Positions 1 through 29,594 of a stretch of 64,000 nt of DNA are shown in pieces. Made by a program: the position numbers and the translations under genes. The notes under the pieces were generated by a model. It saw only the letters and a list, made by a program, of their open reading frames with translations. It was not told where the DNA came from and did not search any database. Position 1 is the stretch's first letter. Each line of letters starts with the position of its first letter. The DNA lies in the NCBI RefSeq assembly GCF_054482595.1, contig NZ_CM137008.1. One strand, given 5' to 3'.

Positions 1-67
1 TTTTTCAAGTGAAATTCAGCAAGAGATTTCATAAAAGTGTCCTGATAATTAATTCTTTAATAAGTAG

Positions 68-349
68 TTAATCGTTTTTCTTTTGAATAACGAAGGTGGC
101 CAGACTATTGATACTGCGCATATAGGACGGGTCGTCACTTTCGCTGATCTTGATATCAAATACTTTATCCAGCAGAACGACAATTTCCGTTGCATCGACG
201 GAGTCCAGTTTAAAACCATTACCAAACAGCGCAGTATCATCATCAATTTGCGCTTCATCGCGTTGAATATTCAGTCGCTGGATGATCTCCGTTTTAATGG
301 TCATCAGAACTTCTTTACGCTGTTCAATAGCGTCATTCATGGTAGACAT
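68..349 (-). CDS. stand-alone acyl carrier protein
   Basis: 93-aa ORF; phosphopantetheine-attachment-like motif KLDSVDATEIVVLL (Ser in DSV) resembling ACP consensus DSLDTVEL; SD-like AAGAGAG upstream of ATG. Confidence 0.75.
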   Translation of the reverse strand: MSTMNDAIEQRKEVLMTIKTEIIQRLNIQRDEAQIDDDTALFGNGFKLDSVDATEIVVLLDKVFDIKISESDDPSYMRSINSLATFVIQKKND

Positions 350-3701: not shown

Positions 3702-3789
3702 TATCTTCTCAAACTAAATAAAGACAGCAGCAACCCCTGCGTGACATGACGCATTAATATTAAAAGCCACTGCTGTCTTTGGTTACATC

Positions 3790-6700: not shown

Positions 6701-7602
6701 CCATTTGTCGTCAGGTTGATCGTGCTTGCAGACTGAATCTGGGCGTTACTGTTTAACAGATTACCTTTGGAATCGATGCTGACACCATTAACCCCACCTG
6801 CGATAACGCCCAGGTTGCGAACCCCTACACCTTTCTCGGTGCTGACCAGACTGATTTTGTTCGCATACATTCCGCCCAGTTTGGCAACATCTACGCTGTA
6901 ACCGTTACGGTAACCCGTGGCGGATACGCTACCGGTTACCTGGCCTGCGGCGTTAACATAGTTATTACCAGCAACAACGTTCAGCTCATCGGCAGACACT
7001 TTGCCGTTAACCACCACGTTACGGGACAGAATTTCTGTCGGGCTGGCGTTATCCAGTTTACCGAGCGTAATGGTACCGCCGTTCACGGAGTAACCGGCCA
7101 GCTTGTCATCCTGGATATCCGGCGTCCCGGTGGTTAAGGTCAGTTTACCTGTATTGATTGAACCGCCACCGTTTACAGTAATACCATTCGGGTTGGCAAT
7201 AATCAGATCCGCTTTATCCCCTGCAACTTCCATCATCCCATTAATGGTTGAAGGATTTTTGGAAGTAACCTCATTCAGGATCACCTTCGCCGACCCAGAG
7301 GTCAGATTACTGTTTCCCTGAATATTTCCGGCAAGTGAAGTATTGGATTCATTAGCGCTGTTATTGAAAACGACACCATTTTTATCAACGTTTAGGTTAT
7401 CCCAGATATTATGAGATAAACCGCTACCGTTAGGTTTGTTGATATCAACGACTGGCACACCATTGGCGTTATATACCGTTCCATTTTTTATGACTAATCC
7501 CGCCGCTTGAGAAGCTACAGGAAAAGACAACATCATAAGTATAGCAATAGGGGTTAATGCTTTACCCACCGTTGCTTCCTTACTTAAATTTATCATCGCC
7601 AC
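3790..7602 (-). CDS. filamentous haemagglutinin/haemolysin-like TpsA exoprotein
   Basis: 1270-aa ORF; extended signal peptide, TPS secretion domain with ANPNGITVNGG motif, Asn/Gly/Thr-rich beta-helix repeats; no distinct C-terminal toxin domain visible. Confidence 0.85.
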   Translation of the reverse strand: MAMINLSKEATVGKALTPIAILMMLSFPVASQAAGLVIKNGTVYNANGVPVVDINKPNGSGLSHNIWDNLNVDKNGVVFNNSANESNTSLAGNIQGNSNLTSGSAKVILNEVTSKNPSTINGMMEVAGDKADLIIANPNGITVNGGGSINTGKLTLTTGTPDIQDDKLAGYSVNGGTITLGKLDNASPTEILSRNVVVNGKVSADELNVVAGNNYVNAAGQVTGSVSATGYRNGYSVDVAKLGGMYANKISLVSTEKGVGVRNLGVIAGGVNGVSIDSKGNLLNSNAQIQSASTINLTTNGTLDNTTGTVTSVGTISLNTNKNTIVNTRAGNISTMGDIYVNSGTIDNTNGKLAAAGMLAVDTNNATLINSGKGSSVGIEAGLVALKTGTLNNSNGQIRGGYVGLESAALNNNNGDIQTTGDIAIISNGNVDNNKGLIRSSTGHIVIGAAGSVNNGSTKTADTGSSDSLGIIADTGVEIGANNINNNGGQIASNGNVSLSSYSTVDDYAGKILSNSKVIIKGSSLRNDTGGISGKQGIEVAVGGSLTNNIGVISSEEGDISLLANSVDNHGGFMMGQNITMESMSGVNNNTALIVASKKLKINARGSIENRDGNNFGNAYGLYFGMPQQTGGMVGKEGIELSGQNIYNNNSRLIAEDGPLTLQAQNTFDNTRALVTSGADASIQVGGTYYNNYATTWSAGNLDIDATTLQNSSSGTMIDNNATGFIASDKNLSLEVVNSLTNYGWISGKGDVDVTVNNGNLYNRNTIAAEKGLDIAALNGIENWKDISAGGDLTMNTNRHVTNNSNSNMVGQNIVINAVNDINNRGNIVSDADLNVTTKGNLYNYLYMVGYGDIALSANSVANNNATIEATGDLIIDSKGNVGNNRGNLHALNGVLSVKGNNLNNDNGEIRGYGDVTLALTGNYDSYKGSLTSETGDVTLTANIVDNAYGLIAGENVSVDAKSTIYNNTALIAANKKLVINAGGNLENRDGNNFLRNNGALFGITDNVGGIVGKEGVTLSAQNVNNNNSSIIAENGPLNLLSKGTLDNTRALLSSGADAIIRAAGTFYNNYATTYSAGNLDVYAASLNNASDGRLEDNTATGVIASDKNLDLSVDNSVTNYGWISGKGDVHFNVLKGTLYNRNAIAADNALTINALNGVENFKDIVAGTALTIDTQKYVTNNSNSNMLGQTIAINAVNDINNRGNIVGDYSLGVKTTGNIYNYLNMLSYGVAVVSANKVTNSGKDAVLGGFYGLALEANETDNTGTIVGM
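3853..5907 (-). repeat. internal tandem duplication inside tpsA (two diverged ~1.13 kb units)
   Basis: Protein residues ~566-872 and ~944-1250 align (e.g. NNTALIVASKKLKINARGSIENRDGNNF vs NNTALIAANKKLVINAGGNLENRDGNNF; TNYGWISGKGDV in both); DNA segments near 4180-4330 and 5285-5440 are visibly similar. Confidence 0.6.
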
Positions 7603-7863
7603 TAACGTTTTCCTTATTGATGCTATTCATTTTGGACATGCAGATCACTTTTGATGACTCACGGAATATCAGCAAAAATGATTGCGGCAAATCCTATCAC
7701 CAGGCGCAATAAAAAATCACGAAAAATAAGCTGAAATAAGGACTCAAAAAACAACTAAGAGTTATTGTTTTTTCATCGAACGGCGAAGTACCTAACTTAC
7801 TAAAACACAATAATTTAAAAGTTTCCCATCCTTCCTCCTTGGGTGAAAAAAATCCAATTTAGA

Positions 7864-7914
7864 GGATGTCTGAAATGATATGTAGTTTTCTGTACGACAT
7901 CATTTCAGACATCC
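7864..7914. repeat. perfect 16-bp inverted repeat (GGATGTCTGAAATGAT / ATCATTTCAGACATCC) with 19-bp spacer
   Basis: Read directly from sequence at 7864-7879 and 7899-7914; lies ~260 bp upstream of tpsA start in a 1.4 kb AT-rich intergenic region. Confidence 0.6.
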
Positions 7915-8993
7915 GAATAAAACAACAAAGTTGGTGAGCTACAATTAATTTAAATCTTGTCATTTGATTAACAAAGCATCAGCATTACTGCATCTTATTC
8001 TCTATATCTTTTACGTCGGGGTAGATTCGTTATGGTCATTACGGGCAGGCACCATTTCATTATATTACCATTTGCATTCACGCTTGTAACCCTTAAGAGT
8101 TATATAAAAGGAAATAGTTCTTGCTCATGGTAATACTGAGATCGGATTAACCATGAGGTTAGCTATATAGAGAGAGCTTTGGCTTTGCGACAATTGGCTT
8201 AAGCAGCCACATTATGTCTGGCTTATCGTTGAAAGATAGAAAGATGGGCAAAACGGTTTTACAAGGTTTCATTCCCATCTAATAGCAATCACCGCTATAC
8301 ATCATCCCTTAACGTACTCTGGCCTTCATAAAAATGTTATTCAAAATTAAAGATTGTAATGATTTTCATAATGTTGTTATTATTTTGCAACAAATAAATC
8401 TAACACAATGATTATTAGCTATTTTTTATTAGTTAAGAGGAGTTGTTTTTTACAGACTGCGCTATAATTCCGCTCATTTTTCACCACAGGAAAAGCTGAA
8501 GTAATCTTAAATGACTGTATTAACCCTTTTCTCCGCTGCCAGCACTCTTATATATCGTTGTTTTATTCTTATAAAAATGGTTTTTTTGACATAAAAAGTA
8601 ATAGGTTCAGCCATTATGCAGAATTTACAACCTGATAAAATCGCAAAAACCCTCCTTACCCAGAATAAAAATCTGATCATCATCTTTCGGTAAGAATTAA
8701 ATTACTATATTACCGTTCAACATCAGTATGAATGAAAATTCAATTGTTATACATGTGATGAATGTCATATATTGTGCTCATCGATTGCAGGACATCGCTA
8801 TTCTTTTAGAGATACAGATATCACGCTGTTACTCTCTATATAAAGAACACACAAAGATTAGTTGTGTTACTGCAGTTGTTATGTCGCATATGGAAAGCCC
8901 ATTGTTACATCTTTAGTAAAAAGATTTATTCACTTTCAAAATTTTTACTGCATGAAGATGGGCTGTTTTGCTGCAAGCAATTGAGTTAGTGCA

Positions 8994-15763: not shown

Positions 15764-16555
15764 TTAACGAATTGAATATCCACCATCAATGACTAATAGT
15801 TGTCCATTGACATAATCTGAAGCGGCACTGGCGAGGAACACCATTGCGCCCATAAGATCCTGTGCCCTTCCCCAGCGTTGAGCCGGTATACGCCCTTTTA
15901 TTAACTCTTTTATTTTAGGGTTATTATAAATAATAGCGGTCATTTCACTCACATAATATCCTGGGGCGATACCATTAATCTGAATATTATATTCCGCAAA
16001 ATCATCGGCATACGCTTTGGTCAGCCCCGCTAAAGCATGTTTAGTCGCCGCATACCCTGGCGACCAACGTCCACCATGAAATGACAATACGGAACACATA
16101 TTAATAATTTTCCCTTTTCTTTGCGGGACAAATATATTCAATGCGGCCTGGCTCATATCGAATGCAGCATTCAGGTTGAGATTAATCATCGGATCCCAGT
16201 CGTTTCGATTGAAATCGATAGGACGATTAATGTTACACACGCCCGCGTTATTGACCAGAATATCTAACTGACCGAAACGCTCCAGACACCTATTAATAAT
16301 GGTACATGCTGCATCAGGTTTTGTTATGTCAATTGTCATAAACTCAACTTCAACGCCTTCATGAGTTAAATGCTTTAAATATTTATTATCAGGCTCTTTG
16401 ATGTCTACCAACAACAGATTAGCCCCTGCTTTGGCCAGAGCCGAGCATAAGCCTCTCCCCAGTTCACCCGCGGCCCCAGTTACGATGGCCACCTTGTTAT
16501 GTAATGAAAAAAAATCCAATGAAAAATCTTCAATAGAAAAGCTCATATCACACAT
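15764..16555 (-). CDS. short-chain dehydrogenase/reductase (KduD/FabG-like)
   Basis: 263-aa ORF; Rossmann motif VTGAAGELGRG, NNAG, catalytic YAATK. Confidence 0.8.
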   Translation of the reverse strand: MCDMSFSIEDFSLDFFSLHNKVAIVTGAAGELGRGLCSALAKAGANLLLVDIKEPDNKYLKHLTHEGVEVEFMTIDITKPDAACTIINRCLERFGQLDILVNNAGVCNINRPIDFNRNDWDPMINLNLNAAFDMSQAALNIFVPQRKGKIINMCSVLSFHGGRWSPGYAATKHALAGLTKAYADDFAEYNIQINGIAPGYYVSEMTAIIYNNPKIKELIKGRIPAQRWGRAQDLMGAMVFLASAASDYVNGQLLVIDGGYSIR

Positions 16556-17232
16556 TGCTCCTTATGAGTAAGTAATATTTAAGGGATAATTTAAGTAATT
16601 TTTAGATATCAATAAAAAAATATAAACGTTAAAACTCAGCATGAATAATAAACATCAAATCTTATATACATTTAAGTAGTGATGTATCACGTAATAATAT
16701 AGTCATCATAGATGTTATGCAGTACGCACAAAAAAACAGGCTGGATTTGCTTGCTGATTTATAATCTTTATCTAAATTACTATTAGCGCTTTGGATAATA
16801 ACATAAGCATATATTACCTCCTAGCAATAATAGACATAACCTCATATCAAGGTGTCACTGGCAAATAATCGGATAAAAGACAGCATCGGTCGGCGCATAG
16901 AGCTTCTTCTATTTCACCAGAAGTGCACAGCAGGGAACTACCAATCACACGGTTAGTGTCTTGGGTGGAGGATGCGACCCGTTCTTTCCCTATAACGGGG
17001 ATACGCAGTTTCTATCAGTACATGCAGAAAACCCCTAATTCACATCACTGCAGAAAGCATTTAATAGAAATATACATCGTTTAAGAATTTCAATTAAATC
17101 AAGATTATTCTTAAAAATCAGATAATTCACATTTGCATTTTTAGGAAATTATACTATAGTGCACTTAATGTTCTTGCCTTTATTTTCTGAGTAATACTGG
17201 ATTTGTAATACACAACTAAGGTATAAAATGTA

Positions 17233-18045
17233 ATGATCTACATTATAAATGATGAAGTAAGATTCAACTCATCATCTAATAAGTTAACATCACTCCTTAC
17301 ATCAGAGGAAGTGATACTCAATTATCCTGCGGGAAAATGCTTAAAGTTACTTTTAGATAACGCTTATAGTGTCGTGTCACACAATCAATTCTTTGAAAAA
17401 GTCTGGAGCGATAGCAGTGCCGAAGTCGCAACCAACACTTTATATCAAAATATATCGATGATAAGGCGTTCCTTTCGTGAAATCAGCTCAGCGACGATAT
17501 TTAATGATGTTATCAGAACGGTGCCACGTAAAGGCTTCAAAATCAATGAAGAAATCAACATAACTGTTCTCGACAATAATCACAATGAGAATGAAAGTGT
17601 TGAGAGTGAAGAGAATGGCACCCATACTGAAAATATAAATAAAAATCACGTTGCAAAAGGTATATTTACCACAAAGAATACATTGCTTATAGTTTCTTTT
17701 TTTGCAGCATGGGGGATAGTGTATATATCTTCTTATTTTTTCGATATGGCTTTTCAAAGCAAATCCCACACTATAAAAAAAATAGATGCTTTCTCAAATT
17801 ATGCTCAACACCCTACTCAGGAAGGGTGTAGCTATTTCTATGACAATAGATATTTTAATTCTGTAGACATGTTATCACCGATTATTGAAAAATTGCAGAA
17901 AATGGAAATTAACTGCAAAATACATCCTTACATTTACATTGCAACAAATGATAGCATGAGCGGGTTTTATGCTTTCACCTGTAGTCAGATGTTAAACTCT
18001 GAATCACCAAATAATTGTAATTCTCTCTATTATAAAGCGGAGTAA
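17233..18045 (+). CDS. ToxR/CadC-like membrane-anchored transcriptional regulator (OmpR-type winged helix + TM + periplasmic domain)
   Basis: N-terminal wHTH resembling CadC/ToxR (VVSHNQFFEKVWSD...TVPRKGFKI), single predicted TM helix (LLIVSFFAAWGIVYISSYFF), C-terminal periplasmic region; SD AAGG upstream. Confidence 0.65.
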   Translation: MIYIINDEVRFNSSSNKLTSLLTSEEVILNYPAGKCLKLLLDNAYSVVSHNQFFEKVWSDSSAEVATNTLYQNISMIRRSFREISSATIFNDVIRTVPRKGFKINEEINITVLDNNHNENESVESEENGTHTENINKNHVAKGIFTTKNTLLIVSFFAAWGIVYISSYFFDMAFQSKSHTIKKIDAFSNYAQHPTQEGCSYFYDNRYFNSVDMLSPIIEKLQKMEINCKIHPYIYIATNDSMSGFYAFTCSQMLNSESPNNCNSLYYKAE

Positions 18046-18049
18046 TCAT

Positions 18050-18541
18050 ATGACTCAAAGATATTTTCTATTTGCGGGAATAATTTTATGTGCTTTTATT
18101 GCAGCAATTCTGAGCCATATTGCGTTTCATCATGCCAATGAACCAGCAGAGCAAAACATATCATGTAATGCCCATGTTATTAATTTCACCGATCATACGA
18201 AAATGGATCAATACTTTTCGTTAAATATGATTTCTGAAAATAACACAGGAAACATGTATCTCACGGGTGCATACACGGTAAATGGAAAAAAAATGGGTTT
18301 CATCCGCCGATATGTGAGTTTTACATACAAGAAATTCCGTGATACCGTTTATTTCACCACTGTTAAAATACAAAAAATACAAAAAGATGATAACATTAGT
18401 GATGAAATCCTTGAAAATATCACTTCTGATTTTTTCATAAAAGTAGACACCTCAATTAATTTTTATGTTACACGTCAAAATGATTACAACTACATATTCT
18501 CTACAGGCAGGACACCACGCTTCATATGTATTTCCCACTAA
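18050..18541 (+). CDS. small membrane-anchored periplasmic protein, possible ToxS-like partner
   Basis: 163-aa ORF 4 bp after the regulator; N-terminal TM helix (YFLFAGIILCAFIAAIL); function inferred only from position. Confidence 0.35.
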   Translation: MTQRYFLFAGIILCAFIAAILSHIAFHHANEPAEQNISCNAHVINFTDHTKMDQYFSLNMISENNTGNMYLTGAYTVNGKKMGFIRRYVSFTYKKFRDTVYFTTVKIQKIQKDDNISDEILENITSDFFIKVDTSINFYVTRQNDYNYIFSTGRTPRFICISH

Positions 18542-18641: not shown

Positions 18642-20156
18642 TTATCTGTTTACATACCACTGATAAAACTCTGTCGCTTTCATTGGTTTTGCATATAAGT
18701 ATCCCTGAACTAATGTCACGTTATTATGAATAAGATATTCCGCCTGGTGAGGAGTACTGACACCTTCTGCAATCGTTATCAAATTGAGTCGATTACTCAG
18801 CTTAATAATAATATCTAAAACTGGCGTTTCGTCTTCCGCTGTAGTGAGTGTGTCTATAAAGCTTTTATCTATTTTAAGATAATCAACAGACAACTTTTGC
18901 AGAAGGCCAAGGGAACAATATCCCGTGCCAAAATCATCAACTGCAAATTCACAGCCATGGATCCTTAATTCATTTATTTTCTGTAATGCAAGATCAGTAT
19001 CTTCAACCAGATTGCGTTCGGTAATCTCAAGAACAATGTTAAATTTATCAGATATTTCATTTTTAATATGTAAAACATCAGCAACAAAATCAGGATGTGC
19101 AAGATGCTCCGCGGCAATATTTATCCCAAGGTGAAACGGCTTTTTCACTTTCCAGCTTTGTACATCCTGAATAATCAGTTCAAAGAGATGCTTAGTTAAC
19201 GGTATAATTAAATTTTCCTCTTCTGCAGCGCGGATAAAAACTACCGGAGATATATTTTTACCATCTTCGCGTTGCCAACGCATTAACGCCTCAACCCCCA
19301 GACACGCTTTGGTTGTCGTGTCACATACTGGTTGATAATGCACAGAAAATTCTCCGGATGACATTCCTTTCTTAATTTCTTCTGCCAGGGACATTTTCCG
19401 AGATATCCAGCGCTGCCATAAGAAGTACAGAATAAAAGAAAGAAGAATAGATAATGGAAGAATGTAAAATACATTACTAATGACATAGGGATATAATGAA
19501 ATCATCGGCGTAGTAACTGTAAGACTAGCCTGACTGATCGCAGAATTAAAATCTTTTTTTAACATATATAACTTGTCATTATTATTTACACCACTAATAA
19601 TTGCAGGCCCTTCAGTAAAGCTAAGAGAAAATGAATCATCATTCTCATCATCAAGAACATCCATCAGATCATAGATATATCGTGACTCTACAATACTAAA
19701 AGCTGTCATATCATTCCCTATTGGCATAAGGAACACTATGGCTGTTTTACCTGGTACAAAACTTGTACCGCTAATTGATACTATGCGTGATTCTTTATTT
19801 TTATTGTGAAAGCTCGTACCGTAAACATCGTTAACATTCATTTTTTTGAAACCGCTAACTGAAGAACATATTTGGAAATTATTTTCTATAAGACCCGTTG
19901 TTCGTACATAGGGGGTCAATGCTCCGTTAGCAATCAATTGTTCCAGGATATCTTTGCAGGGTTTCATCACCAGAATAGAAGTAAGCTTTGTCGTATGTTT
20001 GACAATTTGCGTAACATTATCAAGCTGTTTTAACAGAATACCGGCGGTAATTGTCGTATCTCGATTCATTTGAAATACTGACATAGCAAACGACAGTAAC
20101 ACCCCCAGAATGCCTGGTATTATAATGAGTACAAACATTTTTTTGTTGAATACCAT
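18642..20156 (-). CDS. CSS-motif domain c-di-GMP phosphodiesterase (EAL domain)
   Basis: Two TM segments flanking a periplasmic domain with Cys residues (KPCKD, QICSSVSG), C-terminal EAL domain with EALMRW and DDFGTG motifs; start placed at MVFNKK with GGGGA SD (ORF track 18642..20252). Confidence 0.8.
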   Translation of the reverse strand: MVFNKKMFVLIIIPGILGVLLSFAMSVFQMNRDTTITAGILLKQLDNVTQIVKHTTKLTSILVMKPCKDILEQLIANGALTPYVRTTGLIENNFQICSSVSGFKKMNVNDVYGTSFHNKNKESRIVSISGTSFVPGKTAIVFLMPIGNDMTAFSIVESRYIYDLMDVLDDENDDSFSLSFTEGPAIISGVNNNDKLYMLKKDFNSAISQASLTVTTPMISLYPYVISNVFYILPLSILLSFILYFLWQRWISRKMSLAEEIKKGMSSGEFSVHYQPVCDTTTKACLGVEALMRWQREDGKNISPVVFIRAAEEENLIIPLTKHLFELIIQDVQSWKVKKPFHLGINIAAEHLAHPDFVADVLHIKNEISDKFNIVLEITERNLVEDTDLALQKINELRIHGCEFAVDDFGTGYCSLGLLQKLSVDYLKIDKSFIDTLTTAEDETPVLDIIIKLSNRLNLITIAEGVSTPHQAEYLIHNNVTLVQGYLYAKPMKATEFYQWYVNR

Positions 20157-20349
20157 ACATGTTTCCCCACGCATCAGGGTGATGCAACCTAAGAAATTAT
20201 AGTACAATTGCCAGTAAAAGCGGGTGATAGCAGACTGATCAATGATAAGCATTTAAGATCATATAGTACTATGATATTTCTGAAAATTGTTACGCAAGTC
20301 TGCGAATAGCTATTTAGCGCTTACCAAAATCACCCGCTTAAATGCCGCT

Positions 20350-21708
20350 TTATGGTGACTCACAAAAATTCACCACATCCCTCACAACCACCTTATTACG
20401 CCCGGTCTCTTTCGCCTCGTATAGTGCGTTATCAGCCAGTCGATAGATCTCATTCGGGTTTAACGCATTTCCCTGAGTCACAACAGCGCCAATACTAATC
20501 GTCACTTTTTGTGGTATGGCGTATTCAGGATTATCACCAGTTAAACGCTCAACATTTTCCCGAATCCTTTCCGCTAAAGCTTTCGCACGTTCAGTATCGA
20601 TGTCCGTCAGCAAGACGCCAAACTCTTCGCCGCCGACGCGCGCAAAAAGGTCATCTGGCCGTATGCTTTTCCCAATGATATTCACCACTGTTTTTATCAC
20701 CTGATCGCCAATCGGATGCCCCCAGGTGTGGTTGACTTTTTTGAAGTGGTCGATATCCATAAGCATGACGCAATAAGGCGTTTTTTTGGCCGATGCTGAT
20801 TGAACCGTCAGTTCATTAAAAAAATAATTTCTGTTAAATATATTGGTTAAGGGATCGCGATGTGCAATGTCCTTTGTTACTCGTAGCGCACTGAATATAT
20901 GGCACATAAATATTACCATAACGGTTAACTTACTGACTACTTCAATAGTGCGACTAATATACCAAATGGACACGCTATACCTGCTCATAAATAAAAGAGA
21001 GACATTGTACAGTACGGCACAAAAAGCAATCACCGTCACTCCATTCCAGATATCATAGCGTAAACCATTAAAGTATAGATTAACCGAAAGCAAGGTTAAC
21101 CACATGAAAATCATTATGGTAACATATGAAGCTTTCCAAACCACTTGACCATTTTCATTGGTTAACTCGGCAATGTGTAAATCGTAGCTCTCATAATGGC
21201 TAGAAAGTATGTGAGCAACTATCGGCCCCCCAAGAACAAAAAACAAACTTATGCACAAAGTCATTTTTTTGGAAAATAAATTGCGCTGTTTTGTGTTTTC
21301 ACTAACTTTATTCACCAATGCCAGAAATATTAATATGCACAAACTCATCTGACGGAACAAATAATAAATTGCAATGTCATTTTGAACAACACTGCTTGTC
21401 AAACGCCCCTCAATCATTTGCTGAATGATAATGACGGTTTTAACAAAGTAAATCAAACAACTCAGAAAAGCCAAACTAAGTATACAGTTTGAAAATTGCC
21501 TACGGTCATAAATGAAATACAACTGCATAAAAATAAATGCAACAGTATCGATAAAAAATAAAGCAATCATTACCATCAGATAGGTTGATCGTGGAACAAC
21601 TTCCTCAACGCCTGGCTGATTAAACCAACTATTCACCAAAACCAAAGCAAGCCCAAACAATAAGCTCACTAAGACAGTACTACTAATTCTCAAATAGTCT
21701 TTTTCCAT
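20350..21708 (-). CDS. dgcT: membrane diguanylate cyclase DgcT (GGDEF)
   Basis: Translation from MEKDYLRISSTVLVSLLFG matches recalled K-12 YcdT; GGDEF motif present as RVGGEEFGV; divergent from pgaA as in K-12. Confidence 0.85.
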   Translation of the reverse strand: MEKDYLRISSTVLVSLLFGLALVLVNSWFNQPGVEEVVPRSTYLMVMIALFFIDTVAFIFMQLYFIYDRRQFSNCILSLAFLSCLIYFVKTVIIIQQMIEGRLTSSVVQNDIAIYYLFRQMSLCILIFLALVNKVSENTKQRNLFSKKMTLCISLFFVLGGPIVAHILSSHYESYDLHIAELTNENGQVVWKASYVTIMIFMWLTLLSVNLYFNGLRYDIWNGVTVIAFCAVLYNVSLLFMSRYSVSIWYISRTIEVVSKLTVMVIFMCHIFSALRVTKDIAHRDPLTNIFNRNYFFNELTVQSASAKKTPYCVMLMDIDHFKKVNHTWGHPIGDQVIKTVVNIIGKSIRPDDLFARVGGEEFGVLLTDIDTERAKALAERIRENVERLTGDNPEYAIPQKVTISIGAVVTQGNALNPNEIYRLADNALYEAKETGRNKVVVRDVVNFCESP

Positions 21709-21831
21709 AAAGCTACACCAACCTGTAGGTTGTAGATCCCTTTCTATTATTAATAGATATAAGAACTGTACAGTTGTCAATATGAAAACCCACTCACAAA
21801 CAATACCGATGATGATAGTTGCAGACCGCAA

Positions 21832-22296
21832 TTATTATTACCTTAGTGCTTTATACATTCTTTGCGACAAGACAGGCTTGCAAATATTTATAAATGGTTA
21901 TAAGGAAATCCTTATAAAACATTCATTCATAGATATATTAGGAATAACAATTGAATCCGTGAGTACAGTAACGCTGCATTTCATCAGGGCTTTCGAAAAA
22001 TCCGAAATCATGCATCGGAATTTACTGATTTAATTATTTTACTCCTAACTTATTTTGAAAAAGGCATTGGGATTTATGCCGTATTCCTGAAGATCCTCAT
22101 CATTGGAATGGATTTTCGGGCGAGAAAAGGATTTTATATGGACACTCTGCTCATCATTTCTTCTTCTCATCATCAACAATTCACGTCTCTCTTCCGCGTT
22201 TAATAACGGATTATGAGGTGCAAAAAATATCTTTCTTTTCAGTTACCTGTCATTAGATACAGAGAGAGATTTTGGCAATACATGGAGTAATACAGG
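21832..22296 (+). promoter_or_regulatory. pgaA promoter and long 5' leader (CsrA-repressed leader, GGA motifs)
   Basis: 465-bp divergent intergenic region; GGA motifs including one overlapping SD (ACAGGATG); pgaA leader is a known CsrA target. Confidence 0.5.
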
Positions 22297-24720
22297 ATGT
22301 ATTCAAGTAGCAGAAAAAGGTGCCCGCAAACCAAATGGGCTTTGAAAATTCTTACTGCCGCATTTTTAGCAGCGAGTCCCGCGGCGAAGAGTGCCGTTAA
22401 TAACGCCTATGATGCATTGATTATTGAAGCTCGCAAGGGAAATACTCAGCCAGCTTTGTTATGGTTTGCACAAAAATCAGCACTCAGTAATAACCAAATT
22501 GCTGACTGGTTACAGATTGCCTTATGGGCCGGGCAAGATAAACAAGTTATTACCGTTTACAACAGCTACCGTCATCAGCAATTACCAGCGCGTGGTTATG
22601 CAGCTGTCGCCGTCGCTTATCGTAACCTGCAACAATGGCAAAACTCGCTTACACTGTGGCAAAAGGCGCTCTCTCTGGAGCCGCAAAATAAGGATTATCA
22701 ACGGGGACAAATTTTAACCCTGGCAGATGCGGGTCACTATGATACTGCGCTGGTTAAACTTAAGCAGCTTAACTCTGGAGCACCGGACAAAGCCAATTTA
22801 CTCGCAGAAGCCTATATCTATAAACTGGCAGGGCGTCATCAGGATGAATTACGGGCGATGACAGAGTCATTACCTGAAAATGCATCTACGCAACAATATC
22901 CCACAGAATACGTGCAGGCATTACGTAATAATCAACTTGCTGCCGCGATTGACGATGCCAATTTAACGCCAGATATTCGCGCTGATATTCATGCCGAACT
23001 GGTCAGACTGTCGTTTATGCCTACGCGCAGTGAAAGTGAACGTTATGCCATTGCCGATCGCGCCCTCGCCCAATACGCTGCATTAGAAATTCTGTGGCAT
23101 GATAACCCTGACCGCACTGCCCAGTACCAGCGTATTCAGGTTGATCATCTTGGCGCGTTATTAACTCGCGATCGTTATAAAGACGTTATTTCTCACTATC
23201 AGCGTTTAAAAAAGACGGGGCAAATTATTCCGCCCTGGGCGCAATATTGGGTTGCGTCGGCTTATCTCAAAGAACATCAGCCAAAAAAAGCACAGTCAAT
23301 AATGACAGAGCTCTTTTATCACAAGGAGACCATTGCCCCGGATTTATCCGATGAAGAACTTGCGGATCTCTTTTACAGCCACCTGGAGAGTGAAAATTAT
23401 CCGGGCGCGCTAACTGTCACCCAACATACCATTAATACTTCGCCGCCTTTCCTTCGGTTAATGGGCACGCCTACGAGCATCCCGAATGATACCTGGTTAC
23501 AGGGGCATTCGTTTCTCTCAACCGTAGCAAAATATAGTAATGATCTTCCTCAGGCTGAAATGACAGCCAGAGAGCTTGCTTATAACGCACCAGGAAATCA
23601 GGGACTGCGCATTGATTATGCGAGTGTGTTACAAGCCCGCGGTTGGCCTCGTGCAGCAGAAAATGAATTAAAAAAAGCAGAAGTGATCGAGCCACGTAAT
23701 ATTAATCTGGAGGTTGAACAAGCCTGGACAGCATTAACGTTACAAGAATGGCAGCAGGCAGCGGTCTTAACGCACGATGTTGTCGAACGTGAACCGCAAG
23801 ATCCCGGCGTTGTACGATTAAAACGTGCGGTTGATGTACATAATCTTGCAGAGCTTCGTATCGCTGGCTCAACAGGAATTGATGCCGAAGGTCCGGATAG
23901 TGGCAAACATGATGTCGACTTAACCACCATCGTTTATTCACCACCGCTGAAGGATAACTGGCGCGGTTTTGCTGGATTCGGTTATGCCGATGGACAATTT
24001 AGCGAAGGAAAAGGGATTGTTCGCGACTGGCTTGCGGGTGTTGAGTGGCGGTCACGTAATATCTGGCTCGAGGCGGAGTACGCTGAACGCTTTTTCAATC
24101 ATGAGCATAAACCCGGCGCGCGCCTGTCTGGCTGGTATGATTTTAATGATAACTGGCGTATTGGTTCGCAACTGGAACGCCTCTCTCACCGCGTTCCATT
24201 ACGGGCAATGAAAAATGGTGTTACAGGCAACAGTGCACAGGCTTATGTTCGTTGGTATCAGAATGAGCGGCGTAAGTACGGTGTCTCCTGGGCTTTCACT
24301 GATTTTTCCGACAGTAACCAGCGTCATGAAGTCTCACTTGAGGGTCAGGAACGCATCTGGTCTTCACCATATTTGATTGTCGATTTCCTACCCAGTCTGT
24401 ATTACGAACAAAATACAGAACACGATACCCCATACTACAACCCTATAAAAACGTTCGATATTGTTCCGGCATTTGAGGCAAGCCATTTGTTATGGCGTAG
24501 CTATGAAAATAGCTGGGAGCAAATATTCAGCGCAGGTGTTGGTGCCTCCTGGCAAAAACATTATGGCACGGATGTCGTCACCCAACTCGGCTACGGGCAA
24601 CGCATTAGCTGGAATGACGTGATTGATGCTGGCGCAACGCTACGCTGGGAAAAACGACCTTATGACGGTGACAGAGAACACAACTTATACGTTGAATTCG
24701 ATATGACATTCAGATTTTAA
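22297..24720 (+). CDS. pgaA: poly-beta-1,6-N-acetylglucosamine export porin PgaA
   Basis: 807-aa ORF, near-identical by eye to recalled K-12 PgaA (TPR region + beta-barrel). Confidence 0.95.
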   Translation: MYSSSRKRCPQTKWALKILTAAFLAASPAAKSAVNNAYDALIIEARKGNTQPALLWFAQKSALSNNQIADWLQIALWAGQDKQVITVYNSYRHQQLPARGYAAVAVAYRNLQQWQNSLTLWQKALSLEPQNKDYQRGQILTLADAGHYDTALVKLKQLNSGAPDKANLLAEAYIYKLAGRHQDELRAMTESLPENASTQQYPTEYVQALRNNQLAAAIDDANLTPDIRADIHAELVRLSFMPTRSESERYAIADRALAQYAALEILWHDNPDRTAQYQRIQVDHLGALLTRDRYKDVISHYQRLKKTGQIIPPWAQYWVASAYLKEHQPKKAQSIMTELFYHKETIAPDLSDEELADLFYSHLESENYPGALTVTQHTINTSPPFLRLMGTPTSIPNDTWLQGHSFLSTVAKYSNDLPQAEMTARELAYNAPGNQGLRIDYASVLQARGWPRAAENELKKAEVIEPRNINLEVEQAWTALTLQEWQQAAVLTHDVVEREPQDPGVVRLKRAVDVHNLAELRIAGSTGIDAEGPDSGKHDVDLTTIVYSPPLKDNWRGFAGFGYADGQFSEGKGIVRDWLAGVEWRSRNIWLEAEYAERFFNHEHKPGARLSGWYDFNDNWRIGSQLERLSHRVPLRAMKNGVTGNSAQAYVRWYQNERRKYGVSWAFTDFSDSNQRHEVSLEGQERIWSSPYLIVDFLPSLYYEQNTEHDTPYYNPIKTFDIVPAFEASHLLWRSYENSWEQIFSAGVGASWQKHYGTDVVTQLGYGQRISWNDVIDAGATLRWEKRPYDGDREHNLYVEFDMTFRF

Positions 24721-24728
24721 GGATAAAT

Positions 24729-26747
24729 ATGTTACGTAATGGAAATAAATATCTCCTGATGCTGGTGAGTATAATTATGCTCACCGCGTGCATTAGCCAG
24801 TCAAGAACATCATTTATACCGCCACAGGATCGCGAATCTTTACTCGCCGAGCAACCGTGGCCGCATAATGGTTTTGTAGCGATTTCATGGCATAACGTTG
24901 AAGACGAAGCTGCCGACCAGCGTTTTATGTCAGTGCGGACATCAGCACTGCGTGAACAATTTGCCTGGCTGCGCGAGAACGGTTATCAACCGGTCAGTAT
25001 TGCTCAAATTCGTGAAGCACATCGAGGAGGAAAACCGCTACCGGAAAAAGCTGTAGTGCTGACTTTTGATGACGGCTACCAGAGTTTTTATACCCGCGTC
25101 TTCCCAATTCTTCTGGCCTTCCAGTGGCCTGCTGTATGGGCCCCCGTCGGCAGTTGGGTCGATACGCCAGCGGATAAACAAGTAAAATTTGGCGATGAGA
25201 TGGTCGATCGAGAATATTTTGCCACGTGGCAACAAGTGCGAGAAGTTGCGCGTTCCCCGCTCATTGAGGTCGCTTCTCATACATGGAATTCTCACTACGG
25301 TATTCAGGCTAATGCCACCGGCAGCTTATTGCCTGTATATGTAAATCGTGCATATTTTACTGACCACGCACGGTATGAAACCGCAGCAGAATACCGGGAA
25401 AGAATTCGTCTGGATGCTGTAAAAATGACGGAATACCTGCGTACAAAGGCTAAGGTAAATCCACACGTTTTTGTTTGGCCTTATGGCGAAGCGAATGGCA
25501 TAGCGATAGAGGAATTAAAAAAACTCGGTTATGACATGTTCTTCACCCTTGAATCAGGTTTGGCAAATGCGTCGCAATTGGATTCCATTCCGCGAGTATT
25601 AATCGCCAATAATCCCTCATTAAAAGAGTTTGCCCAGAAAATTATTACCGTACAGGAAAAATCACCACAACGGATAATGCATATCGATCTTGATTACGTT
25701 TATGACGAAAACCGCCAGCAAATGGATCGCAATATTGATGTGCTAATTCAGCGGGTGAAAGATATGCAAATATCAACCGTGTATTTGCAGGCATTTGCTG
25801 ATCCCGATGGTGATGGGCTGGTCAAAGAGGTCTGGTTTCCAAATCGTTTGCTACCAATGAAAGCAGATATTTTTAGTCGGGTTGCCTGGCAATTACGTAC
25901 CCGCTCAGGTGTAAACATCTATGCGTGGATGCCGGTATTAAGCTGGGATTTAGATCCCACATTAACGCGAGTAAAATACTTACCAACTGGGGAGAAAAAA
26001 GCACAAATTCATCCTGAACAATATCGCCGTCTCTCGCCTTTTGATGACAGGGTCAGAGCACAAGTTGGCATGTTATATGAAGATCTTGCCGGACATGCTG
26101 CTTTTGATGGCCTATTGTTCCACGATGATGCTTTGCTTTCAGATTATGAAGATGCCAGTGCACCGGCTATCGCGGCTTATCAGCAAGCAGGCTTTAGCGG
26201 GAGTCTGAGCGAAATTCGACAAAACCCGGAGCAATTTAAACAGTGGACCCGCTTTAAAAGTCGTGCGTTAACTGACTTCACTTTAGAACTTAGTGCGCGC
26301 GTAAAAGCCATTCGTGGTCCACATGTTAAAACTGCACGAAATATTTTTGCACTTCCGGTAACACAACCTGAAAGTGAAGCCTGGTTTGCACAGAATTATG
26401 CTGATTTCCTAAAAAGCTATGACTGGACCGCTATTATGGCTATGCCTTATATGGAAGGTGTCGCAGAAAAATCGGCTGATCAATGGTTAATACAACTGAC
26501 CAATCAGATTAAAAGCATCCCTCAGGCTAAAGACAAATCTATTTTAGAATTACAGGCACAAAACTGGCAGAAAAATGGTCAGCATCAGGCTATTTCTTCG
26601 CAACAACTCGCTCACTGGATGAGCCTATTACAACTGAATGGAGTGAAAAACTATGGTTATTATCCCGACAATTTTCTGCATAACCAACCTGAAATAGACG
26701 TTATTCGTCCTGAGTTTTCAACAGCCTGGTATCCGAAAAATGATTAA
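24729..26747 (+). CDS. pgaB: PGA N-deacetylase lipoprotein PgaB
   Basis: 672-aa ORF with lipoprotein signal (LTACIS); operon position. Confidence 0.95.
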
Positions 26748-28065
26748 TCGCATCGTATCGTTTTTTATATTATGTCTGGTGTTATGCATACCCCTATGCG
26801 TAGCGTACTTTCACTCTGGTGAACTGATGATGAGGTTCGTTTTCTTCTGGCCGTTTTTTATGTCCATTATGTGGATTGTTGGCGGCGTCTATTTCTGGGT
26901 CTATCGTGAACGCCACTGGCCGTGGGGAGAAAACGCACCAGCTCCCCAGTTGAAAGATAATCCGTCTATCTCCATTATCATTCCCTGTTTTAATGAGGAG
27001 AAAAACGTTGAGGAAACCATACACGCCGCTTTAGCACAGCGTTATGAGAACATTGAAGTTATTGCCGTAAATGACGGTTCAACAGATAAAACCCGTGCCA
27101 TCCTGGATCGCATGGCTGCACAAATTCCCCATTTGCGGGTCATTCATCTGGCGCAAAACCAGGGGAAAGCCATTGCGCTTAAAACCGGAGCTGCCGCGGC
27201 GAAAAGTGAATATCTGGTGTGCATTGATGGCGACGCGTTATTAGACCGCGATGCGGTGGCATATATTGTGGAACCGATGTTGTACAACCCGCGTGTGGGT
27301 GCCGTAACCGGTAATCCTCGTATTCGCACACGTTCTACCCTGGTGGGTAAAATTCAGGTTGGCGAGTATTCCTCAATTATTGGTTTGATCAAGCGAACCC
27401 AGCGTATCTATGGAAACGTATTTACCGTTTCCGGTGTTATTGCCGCATTTCGTCGCAGCGCCCTGGCAGAAGTGGGTTACTGGAGTGACGATATGATCAC
27501 CGAAGATATTGATATTAGCTGGAAGCTGCAGTTGAATCAGTGGACGATTTTTTACGAGCCTCGGGCGCTGTGCTGGATATTAATGCCTGAAACGTTAAAA
27601 GGGCTGTGGAAACAGCGCCTGCGCTGGGCTCAGGGCGGTGCAGAAGTATTCCTCAAAAATATGACAAGGTTGTGGCGCAAAGAAAACTTTCGAATGTGGC
27701 CACTGTTTTTTGAATACTGCTTGACGACAATATGGGCCTTCACCTGCCTGGTCGGTTTCATTATTTACGTAGTCCAACTTGCAGGTGTACCGTTAAATAT
27801 TGAATTGACACATATCGCTGCGACACATACTGCCGGAATATTATTGTGTACGTTATGTTTACTGCAATTTATTGTCAGCCTGATGATCGAGAATCGCTAT
27901 GAGCATAATCTGACTTCATCGCTTTTCTGGATTATTTGGTTCCCGGTTATTTTCTGGATGCTGAGCCTGGCAACGACATTGGTATCATTTACACGAGTCA
28001 TGTTGATGCCTAAAAAGCAACGCGCCCGTTGGGTAAGTCCCGATCGCGGGATTCTGAGAGGTTAA
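26740..28065 (+). CDS. pgaC: PGA synthase glycosyltransferase PgaC
   Basis: 441-aa membrane GT2 protein with QRLRW motif; overlaps pgaB stop. Confidence 0.95.
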
Positions 28066-28066
28066 T

Positions 28067-28480
28067 ATGAACAATTTAATTATTACGACCCGACAATCGC
28101 CAGTACGTTTACTGGTTGATTATGTTGCCACAACCATCTTGTGGACATTATTTGCTTTGTTCATATTCTTATTCGCCATGGATCTGCTGACGGGTTATTA
28201 CTGGCAAAGCGAGGCCAGAAGTCGACTTCAGTTCTATTTTTTGCTGGCAGTGGCGAATGCCGTCGTGTTAATTGTCTGGGCGCTGTACAATAAGCTGCGT
28301 TTTCAAAAACAGCAGCATCATGCAGCCTACCAATATACGCCGCAAGAATATGCAGAGAGCTTAGCAATACCTGATGAGCTCTATCAGCAACTACAAAAAA
28401 GCCACAGGATGAGCGTACACTTCACCAGCCAGGGGCAAATAAAAATGGTGGTTTCAGAAAAAGCGCTAGTCCGGGCATAA
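28067..28480 (+). CDS. pgaD: PGA synthase subunit PgaD
   Basis: 137-aa two-TM protein directly after pgaC. Confidence 0.9.
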
Positions 28481-28529: not shown

Positions 28530-29594
28530 TTAACTGTATGCATGCAGCGTACGTTGGCAAAGTGCCGAACGTACGCAATCCTCTTTACCGAACCGGACGA
28601 TCCCGACCATTTCATCTTCTTCGAAACGTTCCAGCGCGTCACTTAATCCGGAGCACACGCCGCGAGGCAAATCGCATTGCGTGATATCACCGTTGACGAT
28701 AACCGTCACGTTCTCCCCGAGGCGGGTTAAAAACATTTTCATTTGCGCGGCAGTCACATTCTGCGCCTCGTCAAGAATGACGACTGCATTTTCAAAGGTA
28801 CGTCCACGCATATAGGCGAACGGCGCAATTTCCACCTTCCCTATTTCCGGTCGCAGGCAGTACTGCATAAAGGAAGCCCCTAAGCGCCGGACCAGCACGT
28901 CGTAGACCGGGCGAAAATAGGGAGCAAACTTTTCTGCGATATCTCCAGGTAAGAAGCCAAGATCTTCATCGGCTTGCAGAACTGGACGGGTGACGATAAT
29001 CCTGTCGACATCCTTATGTATCAGGGCCTCTGCCGCTTTTGCTGCGCTGATCCAGGTTTTTCCGCACCCGGCTTCGCCCGTGGCGAATATCAGCTGCTTA
29101 CTCTCAATAGCCTTCAGATAGTGCAATTGCGCTTCATTTCGCGCGAGGATGGGCGAGGTATCGCGACTGTCGCGGGCCATACCAATGGCTTCTACGCCGC
29201 TCATCTGCACAAGCGAGGTGACCGATTCTTCTTCACGCTGCTTATGGCTGCGCGAATCCCGTCTCAGCACACGTTTTGCCTCGCGACGAGCTTTGATCAC
29301 TGCTTTTTGTCTTCCCATGGAGAGCACCTTGAGTTGTTTGTATTCATCACACGCGCCGTTGGCAGCGCGATTATGCGCACGAACATCAGAGGGTTGGCTT
29401 CCTTGTAAGCCATAGTTTGCTTTTGGATAAAATGCCGAAAAACGGCTACGCGCACCGTTTACGGCGTCGGTAACACATGAAAAGAAAGGATGAGGTTGAA
29501 AATGCAAAGTGACGAGATGACTACCGGAGGAGAAAACTCCGCGAGTGGTGGCGCGTTGATTATCTAAAACATGTCCAGTACAGGACGTTACCAT
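28530..29594 (-). CDS. phoH: PhoH ATP-binding protein
   Basis: 354-aa ORF with Walker A GEAGCGKT; matches recalled K-12 PhoH. Confidence 0.9.
   Translation of the reverse strand: MVTSCTGHVLDNQRATTRGVFSSGSHLVTLHFQPHPFFSCVTDAVNGARSRFSAFYPKANYGLQGSQPSDVRAHNRAANGACDEYKQLKVLSMGRQKAVIKARREAKRVLRRDSRSHKQREEESVTSLVQMSGVEAIGMARDSRDTSPILARNEAQLHYLKAIESKQLIFATGEAGCGKTWISAAKAAEALIHKDVDRIIVTRPVLQADEDLGFLPGDIAEKFAPYFRPVYDVLVRRLGASFMQYCLRPEIGKVEIAPFAYMRGRTFENAVVILDEAQNVTAAQMKMFLTRLGENVTVIVNGDITQCDLPRGVCSGLSDALERFEEDEMVGIVRFGKEDCVRSALCQRTLHAYS

What the first reader, a model, noticed from the sequence alone, without database searches (positions are those of the whole stretch)
21832..22296. c-di-GMP and CsrA regulatory inputs converge on the pga locus in this strain
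The long pgaA leader with GGA motifs (known CsrA target), divergent dgcT and the extra strain-specific EAL phosphodiesterase form a compact regulatory neighbourhood. This is mostly established biology for K-12; the added PDE is the non-canonical element.
Basis: established knowledge. Interest (0 to 1): 0.2.

Follow-up and report, generated by a model that had tools for sequence, protein, structure and literature searches.

The report
Ordinary pgaA leader beside known PdeT
This is the well-studied E. coli pgaA control region, essentially unchanged from K-12, next to a c-di-GMP phosphodiesterase (PdeT/VmpA) already described in O157:H7, so it is ordinary, known biology.

Summary

**What is there**
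- The window is E. coli, nearly identical to strain XH990.
- pgaA starts at 22297.
- The pgaA leader is about 22062-22296.

**Leader conservation**
- It differs from K-12 by one extra A and one A>C, neither in a GGA.
- All eight GGA motifs are invariant in seven lineages.
- Leader diversity (0.018) is 3-4 times lower than at four-fold sites of the flanking genes.

**The "strain-specific" EAL gene (18642-20252)**
- It is PdeT/VmpA, with 6 of 536 residues different from O157:H7, in the same gene order as O-island 47.
- It occurs in 414 of 5,426 complete genomes.
- K-12 lacks it because an IS3-associated deletion of about 31 kb removed most of a tRNA-Ser (serX)-to-dgcT island. That junction is in about 2,300 genomes.

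**Where the signals act**
- c-di-GMP acts on the PgaC-PgaD proteins, not within the flagged interval.
- The signals meet at the locus, not at the leader.

Verdict: already known, low interest.

The parts
22062..22296 (+). pgaA 5' untranslated leader (235 nt; 234 nt in K-12), with 8 GGA motifs at 22070, 22105, 22110, 22129, 22140, 22208, 22284 and 22295
   Evidence: The alignment to K-12 shows only +1 A in the A-run (about 22222) and A>C at 22251. All GGA motifs are invariant in 7 lineages. The leader is found in 4,169 of 5,426 genomes, all but 5 at >=95% identity. The transcript start is placed by the K-12 value ATG-234 (PMC4052769).
22122..22168 (+). Leader +61..+107. The left arm holds the two 5'-proximal CsrA sites (AAGGAUU, AUGGACA). 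[quoted passage not shown] Together they form the CsrA-controlled anti-terminator hairpin.
   Evidence: Identical to K-12. Folds into the imperfect hairpin, -6.4 kcal/mol, no better than shuffles (z -0.49), consistent with the marginal stability described in PMC4052769. Function is taken from PMC4052769 (K-12 experiments).
22279..22299 (+). Shine-Dalgarno and start codon region with two GGA motifs (CAUGGAGUA, ACAGGAUG): the CsrA sites for translational repression
   Evidence: Identical in all 7 lineages. Role from Wang 2005 as summarised in PMC4052769 and PMC7652899.
22063..22080 (+). 5'-terminal stem-loop of the pgaA transcript (GGCAU/AUGCC) with GGA in an 8-nt loop
   Evidence: -6.7 kcal/mol, z -1.96. 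Conserved; the one change seen (+4 C>U in JJ1887) keeps a G-U pair. Function not established.
22009..22061 (+). pgaA core promoter region (likely -10 TATTTT at 22051-22056)
   Evidence: Diversity 0.016 across 7 lineages, against 0.072 further upstream. Two changes versus K-12, at -20 and -13, both in the spacer. Hexamer assignment is my inference from the K-12 transcript start.
21993..22005 (+). Candidate NhaR box TCGAAAAATCCGA at -69..-57
   Evidence: 10 of 13 matches to the NhaR consensus TCgaAAAAatCtA proposed in PMC6307784. Invariant in 7 lineages. Inference only; the footprint paper was not available.
21709..21992 (.). Polymorphic part of the intergenic region (dgcT promoter and 5' region on the minus strand), including one conserved ANGGA (AGGGA, complement of about 21737-21741) upstream of dgcT
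   Evidence: For 21709-22008, diversity is 0.072, equal to the neutral level (four-fold sites 0.049-0.077). There are 28 differences in 300 bp versus K-12. PMC6028588 states that the ycdT (dgcT) mRNA has a single CsrA consensus copy.
20350..21708 (-). dgcT (ycdT), MASE4-GGDEF diguanylate cyclase, 452 aa, intact
   Evidence: Pfam MASE4 2.4e-68 and GGDEF 6.5e-49. GGEEF at 359, RxxD at 350. Annotated dgcT in XH990.
18642..20252 (-). pdeT (vmpA), CSS-EAL c-di-GMP phosphodiesterase; annotated as 536 aa, true start possibly Met27 or Met33
   Evidence: Pfam EAL 3.8e-64 and CSS-motif 2e-13. 99.0% DNA identity and 6 aa differences versus O157:H7. One genome annotates it as pdeT. Motifs and transmembrane segments. 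The NCBIfam alignment starts at residue 41.
22297..28480 (+). pgaABCD operon, all four genes intact
   Evidence: ORFs of 807, 672, 441 and 137 aa. XH990 annotation. PgaD has the same protein accession as in K-12.

Best explanation
The interval is the standard E. coli dgcT-pgaA divergent control region.

**How it works** (each step was shown experimentally in K-12 by others; here I show only that the sequence is conserved)
1. NhaR activates a single pgaA promoter, producing a roughly 235-nt leader.
2. CsrA binds GGA sites at +61..+81. This opens a marginally stable hairpin, exposes a rut site, and Rho terminates transcription.
3. [quoted passage not shown]
4. CsrA also represses dgcT mRNA, which is transcribed from the other strand of the same intergenic region.
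5. c-di-GMP acts later and elsewhere, by stabilising and activating the PgaC-PgaD complex.

**The neighbouring EAL gene.** It is PdeT/VmpA, an active phosphodiesterase known from O157:H7. It is the last gene of a roughly 33-kb island between tRNA-Ser (serX) and dgcT. K-12 and about 2,300 other genomes lost about 31 kb of that island, including pdeT, in an IS3-associated deletion. That PdeT lowers the c-di-GMP seen by PgaCD in this strain is an inference, not a demonstrated fact.
For: **Leader**
- Versus K-12: 2 differences in 235 nt, none in a GGA.
- All 8 GGA motifs, the +61..+107 hairpin, the pyrimidine-rich tract that follows it and the SD/AUG region are identical to K-12. Across the 7 lineages the GGA motifs and the SD/AUG region are invariant, and the hairpin segment has three variable positions, none in a GGA.
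- Diversity: leader 0.018 and promoter 0.016, against 0.049 (pgaA) and 0.077 (dgcT) at four-fold sites, and 0.072 in the upstream spacer.
- The leader is at >=95% identity in 4,164 of the 4,169 genomes that have it.

**Mechanism from the literature:** PMC4052769, PMC7652899, PMC8461298.

**PdeT**
- Identity to the O157:H7 gene and the same gene order.
- Literature: PMC4287979, PMC5897775, PMC4076661.
- Intact hallmarks: two transmembrane segments, Cys99 and Cys129 (CSS), EAL321, ExTE409, DDFG439, KxD460, EGV496, QG516.

**Island and deletion**
- Full island in XH990.
- K-12, O104:H4 and two other sampled genomes have IS3 41 nt after an island-type dgcT stop, followed by a truncated ACP S-malonyltransferase gene and ycdU.
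- The junction is found in about 2,300 genomes.
Against: - Nothing was measured in this strain, and all mechanism is transferred from K-12.
- I could place only four of the six CsrA sites from papers I could read (two at +61..81, two at SD/AUG). The two middle sites could not be placed, so I cannot exclude that the extra A (about +161) or the A>C (+190) touches the edge of a footprint.
- GGA enrichment is only marginal against dinucleotide-preserving shuffles (P about 0.09).
- The upstream 124 bp that carry NhaR-dependent activation have 9 differences from K-12, with unknown effect.
- In K-12 the cyclase mainly linked to PGA is YdeH/DgcZ (PMC8461298), and ycdT expression is very weak (PMC4287979). 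Adjacency to pga therefore does not prove a dedicated role for DgcT or PdeT.
Confidence: 0.9

Rival explanations
1. DgcT and PdeT form a dedicated local c-di-GMP source-and-sink pair. They would be co-transcribed or co-localised and would specifically gate PgaCD, giving island-bearing strains an extra, signal-dependent brake on PGA that K-12 lacks.
For: - The genes sit in tandem on the same strand, 97 bp apart by the annotated start, with no terminator-like site between them.
- They lie directly beside pgaABCD, and this arrangement is kept in O157:H7.
- Both proteins are intact.
- Deleting vmpA in O157:H7 is reported to affect biofilm and motility (Branchu 2013, as cited in PMC5635171 and PMC4076661).
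Against: - A promoter-like site lies just upstream of pdeT (20286-20258), so pdeT may be transcribed independently.
- The vmpA phenotype includes motility, which points to a global rather than a local effect.
- O55:H7 CB9615 keeps pdeT while dgcT and pgaB are frameshifted, so pdeT is maintained without its supposed partners.
- pdeT belongs to an island and dgcT to the backbone.
- About 2,300 genomes keep dgcT and pga without pdeT.
Confidence: 0.12
2. The allele-specific changes in this lineage rewire pga expression relative to K-12. These are A>C at +190, the 6-A tract, -13 T>C, -20 A>C, and the roughly 9% divergent upstream region. On this reading the leader is not functionally equivalent.
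For: - Only 63 of 4,184 genomes carry this intergenic allele at >=99% identity, and K-12 is 94.6% identical.
- C at +190 is unique among the 7 lineages, and the A-tract length varies from 5 to 9.
Against: - The divergent part evolves at the neutral rate (0.072, against 0.049-0.077 at four-fold sites), and the alleles are mosaic among lineages.
- None of the changes touches a GGA, the hairpin, the pyrimidine-rich tract after it, the likely -10 hexamer or the SD.
Confidence: 0.08
3. The 83-codon ORF at 21782-22033 (+) inside the flagged interval is a real small gene.
For: The ORF exists, and one RefSeq genome annotates a hypothetical protein under this region (H9).
Against: - It lies in the segment that evolves at the neutral rate and has indels among lineages.
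- Only 1 of the 30 listed genomes annotates it.
- It overlaps the pgaA promoter and upstream region.
- I did not test it further.
Confidence: 0.03

Closest known systems
E. coli K-12 pgaABCD 5' leader (CsrA- and Rho-controlled; Wang et al. 2005; Figueroa-Bossi et al. 2014, PMC4052769)
   Same: Orthologous position. 233 of 234 K-12 bases match, plus one inserted A. All GGA motifs, the +61..+107 hairpin, the pyrimidine-rich tract after it and the SD/AUG region are identical.
   Different: One extra A in the +157 A-tract; A>C at +190; two spacer changes in the promoter; about 9% divergence further upstream.
PdeT / VmpA (Z1528) of E. coli O157:H7 EDL933, O-island 47 (Branchu et al. 2013; PMC4287979; PMC4076661)
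   Same: Same position immediately downstream of dgcT; same flanking genes; 99.0% DNA identity; 530 of 536 residues identical; CSS-EAL architecture.
   Different: The host is a close relative of a urinary isolate (XH990), not an EHEC strain. Six substitutions: R211S, R227K, A399E, H421L, S431I, S501P (O157 residue first).
K-12 CSS-domain phosphodiesterases (PdeB, PdeC, PdeD, PdeG, PdeN; PMC5897775)
   Same: TM1, periplasmic CSS domain with two cysteines, TM2, then a cytoplasmic EAL domain. Best NCBIfam match is NF007839 (E 7e-93).
   Different: Scores 312 bits against the 461-bit equivalog cut-off, so it is a distinct paralogue. Redox and proteolytic control is shown only for PdeC and PdeB.
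DgcC/PdeK local c-di-GMP module next to the bcs cellulose operon (from my own knowledge; not checked in a paper here)
   Same: A cyclase and a phosphodiesterase encoded beside the exopolysaccharide operon whose synthase needs c-di-GMP.
   Different: No interaction or local-signalling data exist for DgcT, PdeT and PgaCD. The resemblance is positional only.

Membership tests
pgaA CsrA/Rho-regulated leader (K-12 type) | Long (about 234 nt) 5' UTR directly upstream of pgaA, orthologous to the K-12 leader | tested here: met
   99% identical to K-12 over 235 nt. The transcript start is inferred from K-12, not mapped here.
pgaA CsrA/Rho-regulated leader (K-12 type) | Two 5'-proximal CsrA sites at +61..+81 on the left arm of a hairpin whose right arm holds the rut site | tested here: met
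   Sequence 22122-22168 is identical to K-12 and folds into the imperfect hairpin. Positions from PMC4052769.
pgaA CsrA/Rho-regulated leader (K-12 type) | [quoted passage not shown] | tested here: met
   CAUGGAGUAAUACAGGAUG is invariant in 7 lineages.
pgaA CsrA/Rho-regulated leader (K-12 type) | The two middle CsrA sites of the six footprinted by Wang et al. 2005 | tested here: inconclusive
   Their exact positions are not in any paper I could read. The only GGA between the outer pairs (ACGGAUU, 22208) is conserved. The two changes versus K-12 lie at about +161 and +190.
pgaA CsrA/Rho-regulated leader (K-12 type) | Actual CsrA binding and Rho-dependent termination | not testable with these tools
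   Needs gel shifts, in vitro transcription or reporter fusions.
PdeT/VmpA (CSS-EAL phosphodiesterase) | Near-identity to EDL933 Z1528 and location immediately downstream of dgcT in the O-island 47 context | tested here: met
   99.0% DNA identity and 6 of 536 aa differences versus O157:H7 strain 9234, with identical gene order. Location in EDL933 as described in PMC4287979.
PdeT/VmpA (CSS-EAL phosphodiesterase) | [quoted passage not shown] | tested here: met
   Hydropathy peaks at about 39-60 and 256-280; Cys99 and Cys129 (CSS). Pfam CSS-motif 2e-13.
PdeT/VmpA (CSS-EAL phosphodiesterase) | EAL domain with catalytic motifs (EAL, ExTE, DDFG, KxD, EGV, QG) | tested here: met
   All are present, and the Pfam EAL match is full length (2-236 of 236). 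The motif reads EGVS rather than EGVE. I did not compare O157:H7 at that residue; residue 500 is not among the six differences.
PdeT/VmpA (CSS-EAL phosphodiesterase) | c-di-GMP hydrolysis | not testable with these tools
   Reported for the O157:H7 protein (Branchu 2013, cited in PMC5635171); not measured for this variant.
DgcT (YcdT) diguanylate cyclase | MASE4 membrane domain plus a GGDEF domain with an intact GGEEF active site and RxxD inhibitory site, divergent from pgaA | tested here: met
   15 aa differences versus K-12.

The most novel reading that the evidence does not exclude
In island-bearing E. coli, DgcT and PdeT may work as a dedicated local c-di-GMP source-and-sink pair on the PgaCD synthase. 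PdeT's periplasmic CSS domain would give PGA synthesis a redox-sensitive brake. The widespread IS3 deletion (K-12 and about 2,300 sequenced genomes) would then have removed that brake, making K-12 an atypical model for c-di-GMP control of PGA.
Probability: 0.1. Interest if true: 0.45.

Novelty: already known. Interest (0 to 1): 0.1.

Why it matters
It matters little as a discovery.

- **Leader:** the pgaA leader, its CsrA/Rho mechanism and its conservation are textbook for this field.
- **PdeT:** PdeT/VmpA next to dgcT has been described since 2012-2014.

Two modest, useful points come out of the check.
1. pdeT is not confined to EHEC or EPEC strains. It occurs here in a lineage represented by a urinary isolate.
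2. K-12's lack of pdeT is a derived state caused by an IS3-associated deletion of about 31 kb, shared by roughly 40% of complete E. coli genomes. K-12 results on c-di-GMP control of PGA and biofilm therefore need not transfer to island-bearing strains.

Tried and rejected
**Literature that was unavailable**
- I tried to obtain the exact positions of all six CsrA sites. Wang 2005, Goller 2006, Jonas 2008 and Povolotsky & Hengge 2016 are not held.
- The supplement of PMC4052769 is not held.
- PMC6028588 gives no coordinates.
- As a result, only four of the six sites are placed.

**A lead that turned out to be nothing**
- The cluster of differences from K-12 at 21700-22000 (28 in 300 bp) looked like a hot spot. 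Its diversity (0.072) equals that of four-fold degenerate sites in dgcT and pgaA.
- The correct reading is that this stretch evolves neutrally and the promoter and leader are the constrained part.

**Searches with no result**
- Rfam has no family for this leader. There is nothing at E<=1 in 21600-22400.
- The promoter scan does not pick up the pgaA promoter, as expected for a weak, activator-dependent promoter.

**A weak statistic**
- GGA enrichment as a stand-alone statistic is weak under dinucleotide shuffling, so I do not use it as the main argument.

**Reading considered and rejected**
- That pdeT is a recent strain-specific acquisition. It has the same context as in O157:H7, and the island-type dgcT 3' end is shared with K-12.

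Full report
**What is in the sequence**

The window is E. coli. Its first 21.7 kb differ at 4 positions from strain XH990, a urine isolate from China.

| Feature | Coordinates | Evidence |
|---|---|---|
| CSS-EAL gene | 18642-20252 (-) | |
| dgcT | 20350-21708 (-) | |
| Intergenic region (588 bp) | 21709-22296 | |
| pgaABCD | 22297-28480 (+) | |
| phoH | after pgaD (-) | |

The finding's left edge, 21832, is the end of a 493-codon ORF that starts at TTG. The annotated 452-aa DgcT starts at ATG 21708. The flagged interval therefore misses 123 bp of the intergenic region. It also mixes three things:
- the dgcT 5' region on the minus strand;
- the pgaA promoter and upstream region;
- the pgaA leader.

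**The leader**

In K-12 the pgaA transcript starts 234 nt before the AUG and carries six CsrA sites (Wang 2005, as cited in PMC4052769). Aligned to K-12 MG1655, the corresponding window segment is 22062-22296 (235 nt). It has only two differences:
- one extra A in an A-tract (about 22222, +161);
- A>C at 22251 (+190).

Eight GGA motifs lie in the leader, at 22070, 22105, 22110, 22129, 22140, 22208, 22284 and 22295. All are identical to K-12.

From the literature I could read, four of the six mapped sites can be placed:
- two at +61..+81, on the left arm of the +61..+107 hairpin whose right arm carries the rut site;

All four are unchanged, as are the hairpin and the pyrimidine-rich tract that follows it. 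The hairpin folds at -6.4 kcal/mol, no better than shuffled sequence. That fits the published point that it must be only marginally stable. I could not place the two middle sites. The only GGA between the outer pairs (ACGGAUU) is conserved.

**Is it more than chance?**

- Count: 8 GGA, against 2.6 expected from mononucleotide shuffles or the window-wide density (P about 0.001). Against dinucleotide-preserving shuffles the expectation is 5.5 (P about 0.09).
- Conservation is the stronger test. In seven lineages (window, K-12, O55:H7, Ec15103, 15.TR.026, clone D i14, JJ1887) every GGA is invariant.
- Diversity across those seven lineages:

| Region | Nucleotide diversity |
|---|---|
| Leader | 0.018 |
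| Core promoter | 0.016 |
| Four-fold sites, pgaA | 0.049 |
| Four-fold sites, dgcT | 0.077 |
| dgcT-proximal part of the intergenic region | 0.072 |

- Across the collection, 4,169 of 5,426 complete genomes have the leader, and all but five are >=95% identical.
- The cluster of differences from K-12 at 21700-22000 is therefore neutral drift, with mosaic haplotypes. The promoter and leader are the constrained part.
- The whole 588-bp allele of this window is a minority one. It is >=99% identical in 63 genomes, and K-12 is 94.6% identical.

**The phosphodiesterase**

The 536-codon gene has full-length EAL and CSS-motif domains. One search shows:
- two hydrophobic segments, about 39-60 and 256-280;
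- the two periplasmic cysteines, C99 and C129, the latter in CSS;
- the EAL hallmarks EAL321, ExTE409, DDFG439, KxD460, EGV496 and QG516.

It is 99.0% identical in DNA to the O157:H7 gene, with 6 amino-acid differences. One RefSeq genome names it pdeT.

O157:H7 has exactly the same order: fimbrial operon, SDR, winged-helix regulator, hypothetical gene, pdeT, dgcT, pgaABCD, phoH. The literature already describes vmpA/pdeT (Z1528):
- inserted immediately downstream of ycdT in EDL933 (PMC4287979);
- part of O-island 47 (PMC4076661);
- a sixth CSS-domain phosphodiesterase of some EHEC and EPEC strains (PMC5897775).

So it is not strain-specific. It is present in 414 of 5,426 complete genomes.

The annotated start is probably too far upstream. 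The best NCBIfam model aligns from residue 41 to profile position 14, and Met27 or Met33 are candidate starts.

**Why K-12 lacks it**

In XH990 a roughly 33-kb island runs from tRNA-Ser (serX) to the 3' end of dgcT. In order, it carries:
- ycdU;
- an intact ACP S-malonyltransferase gene;
- a fatty-acid/polyketide-like cluster;
- a two-partner-secretion hemagglutinin;
- a fimbrial operon;
- an SDR gene;
- a ToxR/CadC-like regulator plus a small ORF;
- pdeT.

Genomes without the island have serX directly beside dgcT and a different DgcT C-terminus...VVVKEAEILINRKDDE, 455 aa, in 1,398 genomes.

K-12 has the island-type C-terminus (...VVVRDVVNFCESP, 452 aa, in 2,594 genomes). It shares the first 12 bases after the stop codon with the window. 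Then comes the IS3 end, followed by a truncated malonyltransferase gene and ycdU. O104:H4 and two unrelated isolates have the same structure, and the dgcT-IS3 junction is present in about 2,300 genomes.

My inference is that K-12 and its relatives descend from an island-bearing ancestor and lost about 31 kb, including pdeT, in one IS3-associated deletion.

**How the locus works**

Steps 1-5 were shown in K-12 by others. Here only sequence conservation is shown.
1. NhaR activates the pgaA promoter. A 10-of-13 match to the proposed NhaR consensus (PMC6307784) sits at 21993-22005 (-69..-57) and is invariant in the seven lineages. This placement is inference.
2. CsrA bound at +61..+81 opens the hairpin and lets Rho terminate (PMC4052769).
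3. CsrA bound over the SD and AUG blocks translation (PMC7652899).
4. CsrA also targets the divergent ycdT/dgcT mRNA (PMC6028588, PMC7652899). The single ANGGA upstream of dgcT is conserved here.
5. c-di-GMP binds PgaC and PgaD and stabilises and activates the synthase post-translationally (PMC8461298).

The two inputs therefore meet at the level of the locus and pathway, not within 21832-22296. Whether DgcT or PdeT feeds PgaCD specifically is unknown:
- in K-12 the cyclase shown to matter is YdeH/DgcZ (PMC8461298), and ycdT is very weakly expressed (PMC4287979);
- O55:H7 CB9615 keeps pdeT while dgcT and pgaB are frameshifted, which argues against an obligate three-part module.

**Verdict**

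- The refutation test it proposed fails.
- The 'non-canonical, strain-specific' phosphodiesterase is the known PdeT/VmpA.
- Novelty: already known. Interest: low.

Noticed in passing
window 1-20349 (plus XH990 locus L014 7529-20601): A roughly 33-kb island runs between tRNA-Ser (serX) and dgcT. It carries a fatty-acid/polyketide-like cluster, a two-partner-secretion hemagglutinin with its ShlB-type transporter, a fimbrial operon and pdeT. K-12 keeps only ycdU and a truncated malonyltransferase gene beside an IS3, which implies an IS3-associated deletion of about 31 kb. The junction is present in about 2,300 complete genomes.
   Followed up: yes
window 20350-20390: The last 12-13 codons of dgcT differ between island-type genomes (452 aa, 2,594 genomes) and genomes where serX abuts dgcT (455 aa, 1,398 genomes). 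The island junction therefore lies inside the dgcT coding sequence. Which end is ancestral is unresolved.
   Followed up: partly
window 22063-22080: A conserved 5'-terminal stem-loop of the pgaA transcript (GGCAU/AUGCC) presents a GGA in an 8-nt loop (-6.7 kcal/mol, z -1.96). This looks like a classic CsrA hairpin site, but it lies upstream of the '5'-proximal' mapped pair at +61..81. The promoter/terminator scan also flags it as terminator-like on the minus strand.
   Followed up: partly
window 22217-22222: The A-tract in the leader (about +157..+162) varies from 5 to 9 A among lineages (6 here, 5 in K-12). The adjacent GAGGUG is GAGAUG or GAUGUG in other lineages.
   Followed up: no
window 20156-20252: The annotated pdeT start (Met1) is probably too far upstream. 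The first transmembrane segment begins at about residue 39, the family model aligns from residue 41, and Met27 and Met33 (preceded by GGGGAA) are alternatives. A promoter-like site (20286-20258, minus strand) lies in the dgcT-pdeT gap, and there is no terminator-like site there.
   Followed up: partly
window 17233-18541: Next to pdeT lies a 270-aa protein with only an N-terminal winged-helix (Trans_reg_C) domain and weak CadC and HilA/EilA similarity. It is followed 4 bp later by a 163-aa ORF with no family match. The pair is laid out like ToxR/ToxS and is conserved in O157:H7.
   Followed up: no
window 28535-28728 (+): An Rfam Ysr251 hit (189 bits, full length) lies antisense to the 3' end of phoH. 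The longest phoH ORF is 354 codons, but RefSeq annotates 262.
   Followed up: no
window 55381-55459 (+): An Rfam naRNA4 (REP-derived nucleoid-associated RNA) hit, 82.5 bits.
   Followed up: no
window 34413-35756 (+): A 447-aa ORF between efeU and putP has no Pfam or NCBIfam match and is annotated as hypothetical in XH990. In the same region, efeU is annotated as an intact gene in XH990.
   Followed up: no
locus L005 (O55:H7 CB9615) 2643-3820 and 7019-8586: In O55:H7 CB9615, dgcT and pgaB are frameshifted pseudogenes while pdeT is intact.
   Followed up: no
window 7603-8993 and 16547-17232: Two stretches (1.4 kb and 0.7 kb) inside the island have no annotated gene in XH990.
   Followed up: no
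E. coli genome searches: Seven matches to the dgcT-pgaA intergenic region lie on plasmids, and about 1,250 of 5,426 complete genomes lack the region altogether.
   Followed up: no
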